Sequence record: OL960575.1
DNA: 59,778 nucleotides
Direction: 5' to 3' (one strand)
Source of the DNA: Escherichia phage vB_EcoS_SA80RD
Within the stretch, counting starts at the first letter, position 1; each line of letters begins with the position of its first letter. Below, in pieces: positions 6,176 through 40,487 of this stretch. The notes under the pieces are model-generated. The model did not search any database, was not told the DNA's origin, and was given only the letters and a program-made list of their open reading frames with translations. Made by a program: the position numbers and the translations under genes.

Positions 6176-6829
6176 ATGAAGACATTAATTGAAGCATTGT
6201 TAGAACTTGATCCGGATAACCCGAATCATTGGACTAGCGACGGTCTACCTAAAGTTGACGCTCTGCGTTTCGCTACCGCTAACCCGTCTTTAACTCGCGA
6301 CGATATTACAACTGCTGCTCCGCTGTTTACCCGCGATAACCGCGTGCTGGAAGAGCCCGAGTCAGTGGAACCTGTTAAATCTGCTGACCCAGTTTTACAT
6401 GAAGCAGTTAAACAGGAGAAAGCTCATGAAGAACAAAAGAAAGTCGCGGTTGCAACGATGCAAATCGAAGTTAAGATTAGCGAAGCACTGCGTGCTCTTC
6501 TGGAGCCGGAAAAAATCGGTGACACTTCCAGCCTAAGCGATGAAGAGCTGAAAGCGAAGCGTGAAAAGCTTAGCAATGTGGTTAAAGAGATTGCCCACAC
6601 TAAGCACGCGCTGGAGCTTGCTATTGCCGACGTTCAAGCGGATCTGGATAAGATTATTATTGAGCAGGAAAGTCGTCGTCCTAAGTCCGGGCTTACTGCA
6701 ACTCAGATGTATCTTGAAGCGCAGAAAAAACGTAAACCTGAAGACATGCTTTCTGACCATCTCTTCCAGAACCCTATTGACGATCCGGTCGCCCGTATGG
6801 TTGCGCGTAATATGATGCGTCGAGGTTAA
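6176..6829 (+). CDS. hypothetical head-associated protein
   Basis: 217-aa ORF with RBS AAGGA in the head module; no motif recognised. Confidence 0.45.
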   Translation: MKTLIEALLELDPDNPNHWTSDGLPKVDALRFATANPSLTRDDITTAAPLFTRDNRVLEEPESVEPVKSADPVLHEAVKQEKAHEEQKKVAVATMQIEVKISEALRALLEPEKIGDTSSLSDEELKAKREKLSNVVKEIAHTKHALELAIADVQADLDKIIIEQESRRPKSGLTATQMYLEAQKKRKPEDMLSDHLFQNPIDDPVARMVARNMMRRG

Positions 6830-35418: not shown

Positions 35419-37395
35419 TTAGAAAGGAACGTAATCCGGATCATCTACTTGCACAGGATTAACCACATTGTTCACTGTTATACCTTGCGTATTCTGCGAA
35501 ACAATATCGTCCCAGCTTACATCATCGTTATAGCTTGGACCTTCCGTTGTTCCATCCTGACCGTATACTTTAACCTGAATTGCTTCGTCGTCCTGTGGAG
35601 CTTCAAACTTACCGAAGCACGTACCATCATAATCATAGTTCAAAATCTCAGGCCATTTCTTATTGGTATGAACTTTGATGTATTTCGGCGTTTTGAGCAT
35701 TGCAGCAACATCAAGAGCTTCTTCAATAGTCTGTGGTAAAGGTAAATGTGTCCTTTTCTTCCACCATGCAACAGCTTTACGACCTGCCCAGTCCCCATGC
35801 AGCAAAGCTACCCATTCACTGAATATTTTACTACCGCAATAATAAGTCACCTTCATTGTTGGAGGTTTAGAGCTGTCATTGCGTTTAGTGTGCTTCGCAT
35901 AAGTAACATGCGTAACTTTGAAGTCTTCAACTACTGGAATATCCTGCTTGATCAGGGCTTCCGTACTTGCAGCTTTCTTGAGTTTGGTCTGGAACTTAAA
36001 CTCATGACCGCAAAAGCCTTCTTTAACGTAATCCGTCCCGCGTAGCCTAAATCCTTTCAGATATAATTGTTGAACTTGTTCCTGTGTGACGCTGTCCATT
36101 GGGATTGGTGCGAAGCCACCGCAATAGCGAGCAGATGCATGATTATACGACCCACATACATCGCATTCTTTAACCGGAGCAGTACCAGCACCTTTTTCGC
36201 CAGGTCGCTTGGGTTTAACAGGGTCGTTAATAGGGCCCAAACGGCGCGTATTACCGCTGAAATCCAGTACAAGGCAGTTCTGCTTGGGGCTTGCTGCAAT
36301 AGCTTGTAAGCGCCCCTCCTGCGTGGAAAGATCAAACCCCTCCGCGTACACCGGACGCGTACCGCGACCCAGCATCTGGACCCATAGCACCGCCGATGCA
36401 GTGGGGCGGAGCATGATAATTAAGTCCAGCATTGGATGATCAAAACCTGTGGTTAAGACGTTATTGTTAGTTAATGCTCGAAATTCACCGCGCTTAAACT
36501 TCTCAATAATCTCGTCACGTTCTTTTGCATCAAGCTTAGAGTGAATACATCCACAGCTAATACCCATATCGTTCAGCATATCACACGCGTCTTTAGCGTG
36601 TTCAATACCAGAACAAAATATAAGCCAGCTTTGACGGTCTTCACCACATTCAATCGCTTCCTCAAGTGCGCGGAGTGTTGCGTCATCGCGGTTTACCGCA
36701 CTTTGCAGCTCACTCTGGATAAACTCACCGCCGCGTTTACCTACCCCGTTGAGGTCCAGCTCCATCTTAGTACGCTTTGGCACAACTGGAAGAAGATAAC
36801 CTTGCTCCAGGAACCAGTTGAAGGCTTCCGGAGTAGTTGCATCAAACGTTACCTTATCAAATAACGCATCATCGTCTTCGTTTTCCTTAACAATTGAACC
36901 ATACCCCAGTCGATAAGGTGTAGCAGTAAGACCGATGATTTTTAAGTAAGGGTTAACTTCACGCAATGCTGCAAAGAACTTCTTATACATTGTTGCATCA
37001 CGCGGACTAATAAGATGCGCTTCGTCCACAAAAATAAGATCAACTTTGCCGAACTTTTTCGGATGCTTAGCAACGGACGCAATCCCTGCAAAGGTAATAA
37101 GATTGTAAACTTCTTTACGCTTCAAACCCGCGCTGTAAATACCTGCTGGCGCTTCGGGCCAGACTTTCATTAATTTATCATAGTTTTGTGCAATTAACTC
37201 TTTGACGTGAGTTAACATCATTACGCGCTGGTTTGGATACCATTTGTAAAGCAGATCGAGGAACCCCGCGATAACGAGCGATTTTCCTGTCCCTGTTGGT
37301 AACAGGATCAAAGGGTTCCCCGCGTTACCCTTTTCAGCATCAAAATAGCGGAATACGCTATAAACTGCTTCCTGTTGATAATCTCTTAATTTCAT
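35419..37395 (-). CDS. SF2 DNA helicase (DEAD/DEAH-box type)
   Basis: Walker A PTGTGKS, DEAH box (VDEAH), helicase C motifs, C-terminal Cys-containing region. Confidence 0.75.
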   Translation of the reverse strand: MKLRDYQQEAVYSVFRYFDAEKGNAGNPLILLPTGTGKSLVIAGFLDLLYKWYPNQRVMMLTHVKELIAQNYDKLMKVWPEAPAGIYSAGLKRKEVYNLITFAGIASVAKHPKKFGKVDLIFVDEAHLISPRDATMYKKFFAALREVNPYLKIIGLTATPYRLGYGSIVKENEDDDALFDKVTFDATTPEAFNWFLEQGYLLPVVPKRTKMELDLNGVGKRGGEFIQSELQSAVNRDDATLRALEEAIECGEDRQSWLIFCSGIEHAKDACDMLNDMGISCGCIHSKLDAKERDEIIEKFKRGEFRALTNNNVLTTGFDHPMLDLIIMLRPTASAVLWVQMLGRGTRPVYAEGFDLSTQEGRLQAIAASPKQNCLVLDFSGNTRRLGPINDPVKPKRPGEKGAGTAPVKECDVCGSYNHASARYCGGFAPIPMDSVTQEQVQQLYLKGFRLRGTDYVKEGFCGHEFKFQTKLKKAASTEALIKQDIPVVEDFKVTHVTYAKHTKRNDSSKPPTMKVTYYCGSKIFSEWVALLHGDWAGRKAVAWWKKRTHLPLPQTIEEALDVAAMLKTPKYIKVHTNKKWPEILNYDYDGTCFGKFEAPQDDEAIQVKVYGQDGTTEGPSYNDDVSWDDIVSQNTQGITVNNVVNPVQVDDPDYVPF

Positions 37396-37898
37396 AAAGG
37401 TCTCACTGTTCCATGATTCTTGTTAAACCCGTATGTAATTTCAGCCTCTTTTCTTGTCTTTATTGCGTCTTGTAGACTTTCAAAATAACCAAGATGCAGC
37501 CGAATACCGTATACATCAATTTGAGCTTTCCATTTCTTATTTACCTTAGCCCATGTCACTCCAGGACAACCGCTCTTATTATTCGATGGTAGTTTTCTAT
37601 TATGGTTGTTATGGTATTTATTACTTTTATTTAGATTAGTTTTCCAATTATGCGTACCGTCACCATCATCATGATCAATTTCTTCAGGTTCTTCATCATA
37701 GAGCATTTTCCAGATTATGCGATGTGCGTAATAATTAAGACCGTTCATAAAAACCATAATATAGGTTTTACCATGATTAAAAGTAACTTCACTCCCTGCA
37801 ATTTGACCGTTATGGTTCCAGAATAAGTTACCGCTATCTTCGCTATAGCTAAAAATCCTATTGAGTTCTTCTTGCGTCGGTAACGGCAACCTTTTCAT
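37392..37898 (-). CDS. HNH-AP2 homing endonuclease-like protein (HNH region degenerate)
   Basis: Shares the AP2-like C-terminus (...LGYFESLQDAIKTRKEAEITYGFNKNHG) with three paralogs, but EIDHDDGDGTHN replaces the canonical EIDHINH...NRxENL; ATG 37898. Confidence 0.55.
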   Translation of the reverse strand: MKRLPLPTQEELNRIFSYSEDSGNLFWNHNGQIAGSEVTFNHGKTYIMVFMNGLNYYAHRIIWKMLYDEEPEEIDHDDGDGTHNWKTNLNKSNKYHNNHNRKLPSNNKSGCPGVTWAKVNKKWKAQIDVYGIRLHLGYFESLQDAIKTRKEAEITYGFNKNHGTVRPL

Positions 37899-37900
37899 AA

Positions 37901-38809
37901 TCAATCTTTCCCGTAATAATTAGCTACTTGATAGTTTTGACAACCAACTTTCTGCCCTTGCGTATCCACTGCGGCGGAATGGAAATTGCAATACCATGTT
38001 CCATCTTCTTTTGGCTCAAGGAATTGACATGTGCGGCAGTTTACTTCCGGCATAGTTTTACGCCAGCATAGTGAGGAGTGATCGCACCATTTACATTCGA
38101 AGAAAGTGGAATCTTTAAATGCGCGGTCCGGAATATCTGTAGCAATAGCAATCTGCACACCACGATCAATATACATGTCCGCGGTAACAGGATCAAACGG
38201 AATAATTTCTGCGTAAACTTCATCGTCATTCTTGTTTACAGCAAGATATAACGCTGCGCCAAGACCTAGTTTTCGCATGTACACGTTCATCTGTACATAG
38301 TGCTCAGGTTTGGCTTCTTTAACACCTTTAGCTTTCAGCTTTTTAAAAGACTTATCGTTATGTGTCTTCATTTCGGTGAGCACAGGCATCCCAGGCTGCA
38401 CGTCCGGACAACCTATAACCACACCATCGCAGGAACCGCCAAAGTGTCCGCCAGCTTCGCTGATACGGAACTGGTGTCCATTTTCGTCCTGCTGGTAGAC
38501 CTGCATACCTGCCGCAAGCAGCATAGCAATGAAACGGGCTTCTTCCAGATGTCCGCGGTTAAACAGTCGAAGCTGGCGTCCGTCAAACTCTTTGCGTGTA
38601 GCCCAGCGATATCCATAGAAAAGCTTGCGTGCGCATTGCTGCCCAATAAGGGAAGCGCCTAAGTGACTGCGGTTACCGCTTTCAGGGCGATAAGCGTCTT
38701 CAATTGTGGGAATGACTACGCCAAGATACTTACGGTAAGTCCCGCCCTGATCTTTTTGCACACCGTCATTGATCGCTTGAAGTGTTTTTTCTGCAATATA
38801 AATAGCCAT
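37901..38809 (-). CDS. PD-(D/E)xK exonuclease (RecB/Cas4-like) with C-terminal Cys cluster
   Basis: D...LTEMK nuclease motif; several Cys near the C-terminus. Confidence 0.55.
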   Translation of the reverse strand: MAIYIAEKTLQAINDGVQKDQGGTYRKYLGVVIPTIEDAYRPESGNRSHLGASLIGQQCARKLFYGYRWATRKEFDGRQLRLFNRGHLEEARFIAMLLAAGMQVYQQDENGHQFRISEAGGHFGGSCDGVVIGCPDVQPGMPVLTEMKTHNDKSFKKLKAKGVKEAKPEHYVQMNVYMRKLGLGAALYLAVNKNDDEVYAEIIPFDPVTADMYIDRGVQIAIATDIPDRAFKDSTFFECKWCDHSSLCWRKTMPEVNCRTCQFLEPKEDGTWYCNFHSAAVDTQGQKVGCQNYQVANYYGKD

Positions 38810-38874
38810 TGGAATACCTTAGAAAAATAAGCCGTCTTTCGACGGCTTATGGACACTACAGAGGGAGGGTTATC

Positions 38875-39759
38875 TTACTGCTGCCATGGCGGGACTGCTG
38901 CTTGTGCTGGATGCGGTTCAGCTTGCTGCTGCGGCTGAGCTTGCTGCTGAGGCGCTGCTGCCTGACCCGGCTGTGCTACCTGTTGCGCCCACGGCTGCTG
39001 AGCTGCTTCCGGTGCTACTGGCTGTTGTACCGGAGCTTGCTGCACTGGCTGCTGTGGTGCTGCGTTTTGAGCAGGATTATCCCACGGCTGCGGTGCGGCA
39101 TTCTGCCACGGTTGTGCTGCTGCGCCCTGCTGTGGTGCTGGTTGCTGCACAGGCTGCTGAACTGGTTGCTGTTGCTGCACCGGAGCTTGCTGCTGTACAG
39201 GCGCTTGCTGTTGCTGTGCAAACGGGTTAGCTGCTGGTTGCTGAGGTGCTGCGCCCGGGAAAGCTGGCTGCTGTGCTGGCGCACCTGCACCGAACGGGTT
39301 AGCTACTGCCGCTTGAGCACCCATTGCTGGAGCACCTGCTTCTTTTTCTGCATACTTAACCGGATCGTTGATGTTAGCATAACCGTTAGGCTCGTTGCTG
39401 TCTTCATAACCTTCCTGAGAACGAACTTTCAGACGCAGGTTCAGCGGAATGTTATGCAGTTGAGCAGGAGTATCCCAGCGAATTACGCCAACCGCATGGG
39501 AAAGCGCGCCCAGTTGTTCGTATGCGATACGCACAGTATCTTCGTTGTCGTTGATAACGTTGTAACGAGCAAAGATTTTACGACCTTTAGCAAAACCATC
39601 AATGATGCTAAACGTTACCTGGATCGCCATACCGCCATTTTTGGTCGGTTTAAATTCAGATGCTTCAATTACTGCTTTATACCAACCTTTCGGCAATGCG
39701 CCGTAAGAAGGTGCTTGATAGCTGCTCGCGTCAAAGTGGAAATTAGTTGGCATAGTCAT
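38875..39759 (-). CDS. DUF669-like putative ssDNA-binding protein with Q/P/A-rich C-terminal tail
   Basis: N-terminal region resembles phage DUF669 proteins found beside Sak4; C-terminal half is PQQ/AQQ low complexity ending PPWQQ. Confidence 0.45.
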   Translation of the reverse strand: MTMPTNFHFDASSYQAPSYGALPKGWYKAVIEASEFKPTKNGGMAIQVTFSIIDGFAKGRKIFARYNVINDNEDTVRIAYEQLGALSHAVGVIRWDTPAQLHNIPLNLRLKVRSQEGYEDSNEPNGYANINDPVKYAEKEAGAPAMGAQAAVANPFGAGAPAQQPAFPGAAPQQPAANPFAQQQQAPVQQQAPVQQQQPVQQPVQQPAPQQGAAAQPWQNAAPQPWDNPAQNAAPQQPVQQAPVQQPVAPEAAQQPWAQQVAQPGQAAAPQQQAQPQQQAEPHPAQAAVPPWQQ

Positions 39760-40487
39760 TAGTTAATACCTTTCATTTTGTTGATAACAGAACCTAAGTG
39801 TGGGACTTCAACCGCATCTAAACGTCCTGAACGATCCTTAGCGATTGTATTAAAGTCCGGTTGAGTTTGCAAGTAACGATACGAGTTACCTTGCTGATCC
39901 TTATTTACATTCAGACGAAATACTTCGTCGAAGAAGTAAGGGAGCATTTGCCCCAATTTGGATCCAGGCATAGATGGAGCATACGCGGTAACACCGGAGA
40001 CTTCATCTTTGTCTTTGCCCATTTTAGCAGACATATAAACATGTTTGCCAGGAATATCACGAAACTTACGGATTAGATCTTGCATCTTTTCAAGCAAAGT
40101 ACCATAAGCTTGACGAGGATCTTTCGTTCCCTTTTTCGCGTTGTTTAAACATTGTTCAGCAATTTCGCTCAAGCTGTCAAGTGCAATAGAATCGAAATAC
40201 TGCTGGTTAGCTGGAGTTACACACCACTGATAAGCCGCTTCAACGTCTTCCAGACATTTCACTTCAATTACCGGAATATCGTAGACGATGGGCAAACCCA
40301 TGTTACCATAAACACGGTTAAGGTTTTCCGCTGCAATAGACAACAGACCGGATTCTGCGCTGATTAAAATTGGTTTAGGTAGTGTGGCTACAAGGCTGGT
40401 TTTACCCATACCTGCTTCACCGTAAACCAGAATTTTAACACCTGTGTCCTGCACAACTTGTGAAGACATTTTAATTTCAATGGCCAT
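39759..40487 (-). CDS. Sak4-like RecA-family ATPase
   Basis: Walker A GEAGMGKTS; about 240 aa; adjacent to DUF669 protein and nuclease. Confidence 0.55.
   Translation of the reverse strand: MAIEIKMSSQVVQDTGVKILVYGEAGMGKTSLVATLPKPILISAESGLLSIAAENLNRVYGNMGLPIVYDIPVIEVKCLEDVEAAYQWCVTPANQQYFDSIALDSLSEIAEQCLNNAKKGTKDPRQAYGTLLEKMQDLIRKFRDIPGKHVYMSAKMGKDKDEVSGVTAYAPSMPGSKLGQMLPYFFDEVFRLNVNKDQQGNSYRYLQTQPDFNTIAKDRSGRLDAVEVPHLGSVINKMKGIN

What the first reader, a model, noticed from the sequence alone, without database searches (positions are those of the whole stretch)
37901..40487. Sak4/DUF669/nuclease recombination module in which the SSB-like protein lacks an acidic tip
A RecA-like Sak4 ATPase (39759-40487), a DUF669-like protein (38875-39759) and a PD-(D/E)xK exonuclease with a Cys cluster (37901-38809) are contiguous. 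The DUF669-like protein has a 150-residue Gln/Pro/Ala-rich tail that ends PPWQQ rather than in the acidic tip that bacterial SSBs use to recruit partners.
Basis: partly seen in the sequence, partly recalled or inferred. Interest (0 to 1): 0.35.

Follow-up and report, generated by a model that had tools for sequence, protein, structure and literature searches.

The report
Phage SSB with a Pro-Pro-Trp tip
The phage's single-stranded-DNA-binding protein sits in a known Sak4 recombination module and has no acidic C-terminal tip, but it ends in a short Pro-Pro-Trp motif that is conserved in nearly all its sampled relatives and probably does the same partner-recruiting job.

Summary
On the minus strand lie a Sak4 ATPase (39759-40487), a DUF669 protein (38875-39759) and a Cas4-like Fe-S exonuclease (37901-38809). 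The window is a Seuratvirus-type E. coli phage, 97-99% identical to sequenced phages, and the Sak4 + DUF669-SSB pairing is already documented for phage HK620.

The DUF669 protein has a confidently predicted OB-fold N-domain. Its closest solved structure is PrgE, followed by bacterial SSBs. The 149-residue tail is 78% Gln/Ala/Pro, nearly uncharged and predicted disordered.

The new point is that the missing acidic tip is not an absence. In two independent samples of homologues, 144 of 150 and 111 of 117 carry PPW or a close variant within about 12 residues of the C-terminus, against about 4 of 150 expected by chance. Hybrid tips (EEDAPW) and lineages that switch between DDVPPFE and TPPWKR tie this motif to the classical acidic PPF tip of HK620 SSB, which is needed to stimulate Sak4.

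The best reading is an SSB whose Pro-Pro-aromatic tip recruits Sak4 and perhaps the neighbouring RadD-like helicase or the nuclease. The partner could not be identified here. I found no description of this tip in the searchable literature. Verdict: ordinary module, new variant of the SSB tip, moderate interest.

The parts
39759..40487 (-). sak4: single-domain RecA-like ATPase (242 aa), the ssDNA annealing protein
   Evidence: Pfam AAA_24 1.2e-27; PHROG 124 Sak4-like 1.7e-59; Walker A GEAGMGKT; stop codon overlaps the next gene's ATG by 1 nt
39325..39759 (-). DUF669 protein, N-terminal OB-fold domain (aa 1-145): predicted ssDNA-binding core
38893..39324 (-). DUF669 protein, disordered Q/A/P-rich linker (aa 146-289) carrying six internal aromatic residues, five directly after Pro (NPF156, PAF167, NPF180, QPW218, QPW226, QPW257)
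   Evidence: Composition and motif positions; AF2 pLDDT about 50; tail length varies among close relatives while the motifs persist
38884..38892 (-). Conserved C-terminal tip: Pro290-Pro291-Trp292, followed by QQ and the stop codon (38875-38877)
   Evidence: PPW or a PxW/xPW variant in the last 20 aa of 144/150 cluster representatives, against 4.25 expected from shuffled tails; a Trp tip in 111/117 proteins of a second sample; P290 and W292 are at least 90% conserved in a full-length alignment; codons vary synonymously
38827..38850 (-). Terminator-like hairpin (10-bp stem, GAAA loop, T-run) between the SSB stop and the nuclease start
   Evidence: Consensus scan; a terminator is annotated at the same place in phage PaMx42. 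Function not shown.
37901..38809 (-). Cas4-like PD-(D/E)xK exonuclease with a Cas4-type Cys quartet and a second invariant C-terminal Cys quartet
   Evidence: PHROG 1990 3.4e-118; invariant D128, E146, K148, Q173, Y177, C59, C239, C242, C248, C258, C261, C274, C290; AF2 pLDDT 94.4; Foldseek top hit Cas4 SSO0001, then LHK-Exo, lambda Exo, EXO5
37392..37904 (-). HNH homing endonuclease inserted between nuclease and helicase (not part of the conserved module)
   Evidence: PHROG 99 HNH 1e-53; absent from most close relatives, whose alignments start at query position about 502
35419..37395 (-). RadD-like SF2 helicase (658 aa), a conserved member of the module and a candidate SSB-tip partner
   Evidence: phmmer to E. 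coli RadD 6jde E=1e-54 over aa 3-348; NCBIfam RadD_YejH 2.5e-78 but below the equivalog cut-off; present beside DUF669 in all 16 related loci examined that carry the Sak4-DUF669-helicase cassette

Best explanation
The DUF669 gene encodes the phage's own single-stranded-DNA-binding protein. Its N-terminal OB-fold binds ssDNA. A roughly 145-residue uncharged, disordered Gln/Ala/Pro linker projects a short C-terminal Pro-Pro-Trp motif away from the DNA. That motif is the functional counterpart of the acidic ...D-x-P-F tip of classical SSBs: a docking peptide whose Pro-Pro-aromatic core inserts into a pocket on partner proteins.

By analogy with HK620, the most likely partner is the co-translated Sak4 annealase. 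The RadD-like helicase, the Cas4-like exonuclease or the phage replisome are further candidates.

The module would work as follows. The Cas4-like exonuclease resects DNA ends. SSB coats the ssDNA. The tip loads Sak4, which anneals complementary strands using ATP. The helicase remodels the joints.

Shown here: protein identities, the OB fold (predicted), tail composition, conservation of the tip, and conservation of the gene module.

Inferred: ssDNA binding, that the tip is a docking motif, and which protein it binds.
For: Family membership and fold: PF05037 above threshold. The AF2 N-domain has pLDDT about 98 with OB topology. Its closest structures are PrgE and bacterial SSBs. No canonical SSB is detectable elsewhere in the window, nor annotated in the CAjan region examined (positions 20000-59670).

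The tip is under strong selection although the tail is otherwise hypervariable. PPW or a variant occurs in 144/150 representatives against 4.25 expected and in 111/117 of a second sample. P290 and W292 are at least 90% conserved. Codons differ synonymously. Phage yong3 has a diverged tail, but the 13 residues HPAQAAVPPWQQ and the Pro before them are identical to the window's C-terminal end.

Continuity with the proven tip: HK620 SSB ends NDYPPF, and its last 6 residues are required for Sak4 binding to SSB-coated ssDNA and for stimulating annealing (PMC5928155). Hybrid tips such as EEDAPWA and DDADAPWNQ exist. Modules with DDVPPFE and TPPWKR tips are as similar to each other as two PW modules are.

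Sak4 is the only neighbour present with every tip class: all 16 related cassette loci, HK620, N4, and 4 of the 6 other N4-like loci checked, where the upstream gene was named Sak4-like or AAA. The sak4 stop overlaps the SSB start.

Precedent for a non-acidic aromatic tip acting as a protein contact in this superfamily: N4 SSB (PMC4496689), and the SLF tip conserved in 7 Schitoviridae genera.
Against: No experiment or docking links PPW to any partner.

In the AF2 monomer the tip reaches only pLDDT 58-63.

The Trp lies 1-11 residues from the C-terminus. The alpha-carboxylate recognition typical of SSB-tip pockets therefore cannot apply, and the binding mode must differ.

Neither Sak4 nor the RadD-like helicase shows residues that covary with tip class.

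The internal PW/PF repeats are not explained by a single-tip docking model.
Confidence: 0.6

Rival explanations
1. The aromatic motifs, both the terminal PPW and the internal NPF/QPW repeats, act mainly within and between SSB molecules. They would bind the OB-fold or each other as 'stickers' in a Gln/Pro 'spacer'. This would tune cooperativity on ssDNA or drive condensate formation that concentrates replication and recombination proteins, rather than docking one specific partner.
For: The tail holds seven aromatic residues, six directly after Pro, spaced 8-38 residues apart in an otherwise uncharged Q/A/P tail. Similar repeated xPW/GGW motifs occur in the tails of distant relatives such as JG012, Halfdan and RcSpartan. 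In the tails of the 150 representatives, 58% of Trp residues follow Pro. From general knowledge rather than from a test here: the E. coli SSB linker and tip contact its own OB fold and promote phase separation. The closest fold relative, PrgE, oligomerises along DNA through a terminal tail (PMC11137577).
Against: The terminal motif is far more conserved than the internal ones. Short-tail relatives of about 150 aa keep only the terminal TPPWKR and have no repeats, so the repeats are dispensable for the family's core function. AF2 does not dock the tip on the OB domain with confidence.
Confidence: 0.2
2. The PPW tip contacts a host protein rather than a phage one. An example would be RNA polymerase beta-prime, as in N4 SSB, which would couple late transcription to replication. 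Another would be a host replication or repair factor conserved across Proteobacteria.
For: The N4 SSB C-terminus is essential for activating host RNAP at late promoters through beta-prime (PMC4496689). N4-like SSBs carry a conserved non-acidic aromatic tip, SLF followed by basic residues, which resembles the short-form PPW[KR][KR] tips. Seuratviruses have no annotated RNA polymerase in the CAjan region examined (positions 20000-59670). The tip is conserved across phages of many Gram-negative hosts.
Against: There is no evidence of late-promoter control by SSB in this phage group. PPW and SLF tips differ in sequence. The experimentally shown role of a PP-aromatic tip in this family is Sak4 stimulation. 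Residues flanking the tip vary from acidic to basic between close lineages, which is hard to reconcile with one conserved host surface.
Confidence: 0.12
3. The tail is only a passive spacer or solubility tag. The terminal PPW is conserved for a trivial reason, such as protection from C-terminal proteolysis or a constraint at the DNA or RNA level.
For: Low-complexity tails evolve fast and vary in length. A terminator-like hairpin lies just downstream.
Against: The hairpin starts 25 nt after the stop codon and does not overlap the PPW codons. PPW codons vary synonymously among relatives. The motif is retained in proteins with tails from about 10 to about 190 residues and from unrelated hosts. 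Removal of the homologous PPF tip has a strong phenotype in HK620.
Confidence: 0.04

Closest known systems
SSB of phage HK620 (HkaK/Abc1, Pfam DUF669) with its cognate Sak4 (Hutinet et al. 2018, PMC5928155)
   Same: Same Pfam family and same gene order, with sak4 immediately upstream. An OB-type N-domain is followed by a flexible tail that ends in a Pro-Pro-aromatic motif (YPPF against VPPW).
   Different: HK620 SSB has a roughly 45-residue tail with three Asp in its last 13 residues (PMC5928155) and the Phe at the very C-terminus. The window protein has a 149-residue, nearly uncharged Q/A/P tail, Trp instead of Phe, two residues after the aromatic, and six additional internal aromatic motifs. 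BLAST does not detect the two proteins as similar; only the profile does.
N4 SSB (gp45) and N4-like SSBs
   Same: Linked to DUF669 by profile comparison in the literature (PMC4889955). The gene lies next to sak4 in N4, and in 4 of the 6 other N4-like loci checked the upstream gene is named Sak4-like or AAA. They have a non-acidic flexible tail with one conserved aromatic residue near the end, and the C-terminus is a protein-protein contact.
   Different: The tip is SLF followed by 0-4 mostly basic residues, not PPW. The N-domain is larger. The documented partner is host RNAP beta-prime, for late transcription.
E. coli SSB and other bacterial SSBs (Pfam PF00436)
   Same: OB-fold core, a Gly/Gln/Pro-rich disordered linker, and a C-terminal docking peptide with a Pro-aromatic core (IPF).
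   Different: There is no sequence match. The fold is closer to PrgE than to tetrameric SSBs. There is no acidic tip and the aromatic residue is not C-terminal, so the 'basic lip plus alpha-carboxylate' recognition cannot apply.
PrgE of plasmid pCF10 (PDB 8S4S/8S4T)
   Different: The relationship is at fold level only, with 11-16% identity. PrgE has no long tail and oligomerises through its N-terminus. It belongs to a conjugative plasmid, not to a Sak4 module.
Cas4 / lambda-Exo-type PD-(D/E)xK exonucleases (SSO0001, AddB nuclease domain, EXO5)
   Same: The D...ExK...QxxxY catalytic motifs and the C-x(n)-C-x2-C-x5-C quartet that binds a 4Fe-4S cluster in Cas4. The best structural match is SSO0001.
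   Different: It is not CRISPR-associated and carries an extra invariant Cys quartet at the C-terminus (C258, C261, C274, C290).

Membership tests
DUF669 (PF05037) phage SSB family | Match to the Pfam model above the gathering score | tested here: met
   54.1 bits against a cut-off of 21, E=2.4e-14, aa 8-144 matching model positions 2-138 of 138
DUF669 (PF05037) phage SSB family | OB-fold DNA-binding domain | tested here: met
   Prediction only: AF2 pLDDT about 98 with b1-b2-b3-helix-b4-b5 order. Top structural matches are PrgE and bacterial SSBs.
DUF669 (PF05037) phage SSB family | Gene adjacent to a sak4 (AAA_24) gene | tested here: met
   sak4 lies immediately upstream with a 1-nt overlap. 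The same holds in all 16 related cassette loci examined.
DUF669 (PF05037) phage SSB family | Acidic C-terminal tail, stated as typical by Kazlauskas et al. 2016 and functionally required in HK620 | tested here: not met
   There are no acidic residues in the last 13 positions and only 3 D/E in 149 tail residues. This feature turns out not to define the family: 144/150 and 111/117 sampled relatives carry a Trp tip instead.
DUF669 (PF05037) phage SSB family | Binds ssDNA and stimulates Sak4 annealing | not testable with these tools
   Requires purified proteins (gel shift and annealing assays, as in PMC5928155).
Canonical bacterial SSB (PF00436) | Sequence match to the SSB family | tested here: not met
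   No Pfam SSB hit.
Sak4 (AAA_24, PF13479) | Profile match, Walker A motif, and a single RecA-core domain without the RecA C-terminal domain | tested here: met
   AAA_24 at 97.4 bits against a cut-off of 27; PHROG Sak4-like 1.7e-59; GEAGMGKT at aa 23-30; 242 aa in total, covered by the one domain.
Cas4-like Fe-S PD-(D/E)xK exonuclease | D...ExK and QxxxY catalytic motifs | tested here: met
   D128, E146, K148, Q173 and Y177 are invariant in 60 homologues.
Cas4-like Fe-S PD-(D/E)xK exonuclease | Four-Cys cluster ligands C-x(n)-C-x2-C-x5-C | tested here: met
   C59, C239, C242 and C248 are invariant. Metal content is not testable here.
Cas4-like Fe-S PD-(D/E)xK exonuclease | Fold similarity to Cas4 or lambda Exo | tested here: met
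   The AF2 model has pLDDT 94.4. Foldseek top hit is SSO0001 Cas4 at E=6.6e-6, followed by LHK-Exo, lambda Exo, EXO5, MGME1 and RecE.
Cas4-like Fe-S PD-(D/E)xK exonuclease | Association with a CRISPR-Cas locus (Cas4 proper) | tested here: not met
   The gene lies in a phage replication and recombination module. It is therefore 'Cas4-like', not a Cas4.
RadD (YejH) helicase | Full-length equivalog match | tested here: not met
   NCBIfam RadD_YejH scores 263.8 bits against a cut-off of 720, and only the motor domains (aa 1-384) align. phmmer to 6jde gives 1e-54 over aa 3-348. It is RadD-like, not an orthologue.
RadD (YejH) helicase | SSB-tip pocket framed by Arg21, Arg49 and Arg145 (PMC10238739) | tested here: inconclusive
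   R49 aligns to N55 and R145 to K152. The R21 mapping differs between HMMER (D19) and MAFFT (K22). The hydrophobic pocket residues are retained. The helicase next to an acidic-tip SSB also lacks R21 and R49.

The most novel reading that the evidence does not exclude
The uncharged Gln/Pro/Ala tail with regularly spaced Pro-aromatic 'stickers' and a PPW tip may be more than a docking peptide. It could be a scaffold that forms SSB condensates or recruits the host RNA polymerase, as the N4 SSB C-terminus does. Either would organise a phage replication and recombination compartment or couple late transcription to replication, through an interaction code orthogonal to the host's acidic-tip SSB interactome.
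Probability: 0.15. Interest if true: 0.7.

Novelty: new variant of a known kind. Interest (0 to 1): 0.42.

Why it matters
The acidic C-terminal tip is treated as the universal 'handle' by which SSBs organise replication, repair and recombination proteins, and the one published survey says DUF669 SSBs have it too.

This work shows that almost every relative listed in two searches (267 proteins) uses a different, nearly charge-free or even basic handle with a Pro-Pro-Trp core. These come from a family with 5231 hits at E up to 0.001 and include phages of Escherichia, Pseudomonas, Vibrio, Salmonella, Rhizobium and others.

That gives a simple testable hypothesis: tip peptide pull-downs and W-to-A mutants in genetically tractable BASEL or CAjan-type coliphages. 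It also suggests how a phage SSB could recruit its own partners without engaging the host SSB interactome, and it may help in choosing matched Sak4-SSB pairs for recombineering.

It is not a new kind of system. The module and the protein family are known.

Tried and rejected
1. Direct sequence search of the three proteins and of the DUF669 profile against PDB sequences. It found nothing for SSB, nuclease or Sak4, and only low-complexity hits such as the ZipA linker for the profile.

2. The first word-indexed homologue search with the N-domain returned only 4 proteins. It was replaced by the exhaustive HMMER search and a profile search.

3. Docking-style AF2 of a Sak4-(GGGGS)6-tip fusion with paired homologues.

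4. Covariation between tip class and the RadD SSB-pocket arginines in the neighbouring helicase. R49 is lost in both tip classes and the R21 alignment is ambiguous, so the result is inconclusive.

5. Covariation between tip class and charged positions in Sak4. The class-specific columns track the two Sak4 subfamilies, not the tip.

6. The idea that tip class reflects presence or absence of a neighbour. Rejected, because acidic-tip and PW-tip proteins sit in the same nuclease-Sak4-SSB-helicase-primase modules.

7. A DNA-level explanation for PPW conservation. Rejected because of synonymous codon variation and because the downstream hairpin does not overlap the codons.

8. Literature searches for a Trp or PPW SSB tip, for a Seuratvirus SSB, and for defence systems sensing DUF669 SSBs. 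Nothing relevant was found. The library lacks most subscription journals, so a prior description cannot be excluded.
Full report
**What is there**

The window is a Seuratvirus-type (Queuovirinae) E. coli siphophage. The region 37392-40487 is 97-99% identical at the DNA level to phages VogelGryff, SLUR76, Skure and CAjan.

- The 242-aa product of 39759-40487 matches Pfam AAA_24 (E=1.2e-27) and the PHROG 'Sak4-like ssDNA annealing protein' (E=1.7e-59). It has a Walker A motif GEAGMGKT.
- The 294-aa product of 38875-39759 matches Pfam DUF669 above threshold (54.1 bits against 21; aa 8-144) and three PHROGs annotated as SSB.
- The 302-aa product of 37901-38809 has no Pfam hit but matches the PHROG 'Cas4-domain exonuclease' at E=3.4e-118.
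- The sak4 stop codon overlaps the DUF669 start by one base.
- A 65-nt gap with a strong terminator-like hairpin (38850-38827) separates DUF669 from the nuclease.

**Wider module**

Downstream lie an HNH homing endonuclease (37392-37904), present in few close relatives, and a 658-aa SF2 helicase (35419-37395). The helicase motor domains are clearly RadD-like. phmmer to E. coli RadD gives E=1e-54, and NCBIfam RadD_YejH gives 2.5e-78, which is below the equivalog cut-off. Upstream are a DNA ligase and an RNase H.

The order Sak4 - DUF669 - (small ORFs or RusA) - PD-(D/E)xK nuclease - SF2 helicase recurs widely, usually next to a primase or Prim-Pol and often next to a polymerase with a clamp-like factor. 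It occurs in Seuratvirus, Nonagvirus, Nipunavirus, Lokivirus, Septimatrevirus, Titanvirus, Kleczkowskavirus and Rosemountvirus, in unclassified marine phages, and in prophage-like regions of metagenomic assemblies. In some of these the nuclease lies upstream of sak4, or no nuclease is annotated in the stretch examined.

**The SSB-like protein**

AlphaFold2 with a 145-sequence alignment predicts residues about 20-140 at pLDDT about 98. The order of elements is the OB-fold one, b1-b2-b3-helix-b4-b5. The rest of the protein is disordered, with pLDDT about 50.

The literature already identifies DUF669 as an SSB family. Kazlauskas et al. 2016 linked it to N4 SSB (PMC4889955). Hutinet et al. 2018 showed biochemically that the DUF669 protein of HK620 is an SSB that stimulates its neighbouring Sak4 (PMC5928155).

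**The tail and its tip**

Residues 146-294 are 32% Gln, 25.5% Ala and 20% Pro, with three acidic and no basic residues. The only aromatic residues are seven Phe or Trp, six directly after Pro and one two residues after Pro: NPF, PAF, NPF, QPW, QPW, QPW, PPW. The protein ends ...EPHPAQAAVPPWQQ, so there is indeed no acidic tip.

The important addition is that this ending is not idiosyncratic. An exhaustive HMMER search with the N-domain alone found 5231 relatives at E up to 0.001. Its best 150 cluster representatives are at most 50% identical to one another and mostly carry tails of 90-180 residues.
- Of these, 117 have PPW and 27 more have PxW or xPW within the last 20 residues.
- Shuffling each tail gives 4.25 on average, with a maximum of 12.
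- The consensus is [T/V]-P-P-W-[A/M/Q]-[Q/R/K], with Trp 1-11 residues from the end (mode 5).
- Only two of the 150 have a classical acidic ...PF end.
- In a plain full-length alignment, P290 and W292 are as conserved as core residues of the fold.

A second, independently collected sample of 117 proteins gave 111 with a Trp tip. Many of these are short-tail forms of about 150 aa ending TPPWKR.

Named phages from different genera confirm the pattern:

| Phage | C-terminal ending |
|---|---|
| yong3 | HPAQAAVPPWQQPAQ |
| JG012 | IPPWAQPQQ |
| JenK1 | TPPWKRSTEGDDAAQ |
| Vibrio 033B | LPPWMQNQQG |
| Pseudoalteromonas C7 | APAWAQQGN |
| Halfdan | QPAWGQPR |
| RHEph05 | APSWAQQ |
| RcSpartan | GGPWGQR |

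The Pro codons differ synonymously between phages, so selection acts on the protein. Among close relatives the tail changes length: one variant lacks 32 internal residues. It also diverges by indels, while the last 13 residues stay identical between the window and yong3.

**Relation to the classical tip**

HK620 SSB ends NDYPPF. Deleting its last six residues abolishes Sak4 binding to SSB-coated ssDNA and most of the stimulation of annealing and recombineering. The Pro-Pro-aromatic core is therefore shared with the window protein.

Intermediates exist. Rosemountvirus-type proteins end EEDAPWA, DDADAPWNQ or EPAPWEE.

Modules whose SSBs end DDVPPFE or TPPWKR are as similar to each other as two PW-type modules are. 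The first comparison gives Sak4 49-53% and SSB N-domain 58-60% identity; the second gives 54% and 57%. Only the charge of the flank has switched, within one lineage.

N4 SSB and N4-like SSBs from seven Schitoviridae genera end in a third conserved aromatic motif, SLF plus 0-4 residues. The N4 SSB C-terminus is known to contact host RNAP beta-prime (PMC4496689).

The superfamily thus uses a flexible tail ending in one conserved aromatic anchor, with at least three flavours. The 2016 statement that DUF669 proteins have acidic tails does not hold for the relatives sampled here.

**Mechanism**

The best-supported reading is that the protein is the phage SSB and PPW is its partner-docking tip. Sak4 is the most likely partner for three reasons. 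It is the experimentally shown partner of the homologous tip. It is the only neighbour common to all tip classes. The two genes are probably translationally coupled.

The RadD-like helicase is a second candidate, because E. coli RadD binds the SSB tip in a pocket framed by R21, R49 and R145 (PMC10238739). In the phage helicase the hydrophobic pocket residues are retained, R49 is Asn and R145 is Lys. However, the R21 alignment is ambiguous, and the helicase next to an acidic-tip SSB shows the same losses. This test is therefore inconclusive.

Sak4 sequences show no tip-class-specific positions beyond phylogeny. Because the Trp is not C-terminal, the usual alpha-carboxylate recognition cannot apply.

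The rivals are listed with their tests: self-interaction or condensation through the repeated Pro-aromatic motifs, a host partner such as RNAP, and a purely passive tail.

**The nuclease**

Sixty homologues keep D128, E146, K148, Q173, Y177 and the Cas4-type quartet C59/C239/C242/C248 invariant. They also keep a second quartet, C258/C261/C274/C290.

The AF2 model (pLDDT 94.4) is closest to the Cas4 protein SSO0001. Next come LHK-Exo and lambda exonuclease, EXO5, MGME1, RecE and AdnAB nuclease domains.

**Novelty and verdict**

The locus is from a well-sequenced phage genus, and the Sak4/DUF669 SSB/nuclease/helicase module is a known kind. What appears undescribed in the literature I could search is the conserved PPW-type tip and its continuity with the acidic PPF tip. 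The library omits most subscription journals, so this is not proof of novelty.

I rate it a new variant of a known kind, of moderate interest. It is a clean, widely conserved and easily testable short linear motif that qualifies a textbook generalisation about SSBs. It is not a new system, and its partner remains unidentified.

Noticed in passing
window 37392-37904 (-): An HNH homing endonuclease ORF (TTG start overlapping the nuclease stop) is inserted between the Cas4-like nuclease and the RadD-like helicase. Among close relatives only VogelGryff covers it fully. In CAjan the helicase follows the nuclease directly.
   Followed up: partly
window 38827-38850 (-): A strong intrinsic-terminator-like hairpin (10-bp stem, GAAA loop, T-run) lies right after the SSB gene. 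PaMx42 has an annotated terminator at the equivalent place. This may set a higher sak4-ssb expression level than for the downstream genes.
   Followed up: partly
window 37901-38038 (-), nuclease aa 258-302: A second invariant Cys quartet (C258, C261, C274, C290) forms a small three-stranded C-terminal element in the model. It looks like a zinc-ribbon or second metal site and is not part of the canonical Cas4 core.
   Followed up: partly
L009 (Pseudomonas phage PaMx42) about 6580-6730: The annotated SSB tail ends in an Arg-rich sequence unlike its relatives. Another reading frame ends ...GGAAPWGAR*, which suggests a frameshift in the deposited sequence or annotation.
   Followed up: partly
window 38809-39762 (+): A 317-aa antisense ORF runs opposite the SSB gene. 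It is a by-product of the stop-free Gln/Pro/Ala codon composition (Leu/Cys/Arg/Trp-rich translation), not a gene. The same composition raises local G+C to 0.50 against about 0.43 nearby.
   Followed up: partly
P0002, P0001 (close relatives of the window SSB): Tail-length polymorphism occurs among proteins with 99% identical N-domains. One variant lacks a 32-residue internal block but keeps the tip. A 160-aa truncated form on a short contig is probably an assembly or frameshift artefact.
   Followed up: partly
L003, L020-L025 (N4-like phages): SSBs of seven Schitoviridae genera all end in SLF followed by 0-4 residues (GKK, GKR, DKKS, S, DD, N). This conserved tip lies in the region reported as essential for N4 late-transcription activation.
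   Followed up: partly
window 35419-36345 (-), helicase aa 351-658: The C-terminal half of the RadD-like helicase does not align to RadD and contains a CxxC-type motif (CDVCGSYNHASARYC). Its role is unknown.
   Followed up: no
L017, L018: Short-tail PW-tip DUF669 modules occur next to serine recombinase or repressor-type genes on long bacterial contigs (a Phycisphaerae MAG and a 737-kb TARA scaffold). They therefore also occur in prophage-like elements outside Proteobacteria.
   Followed up: no
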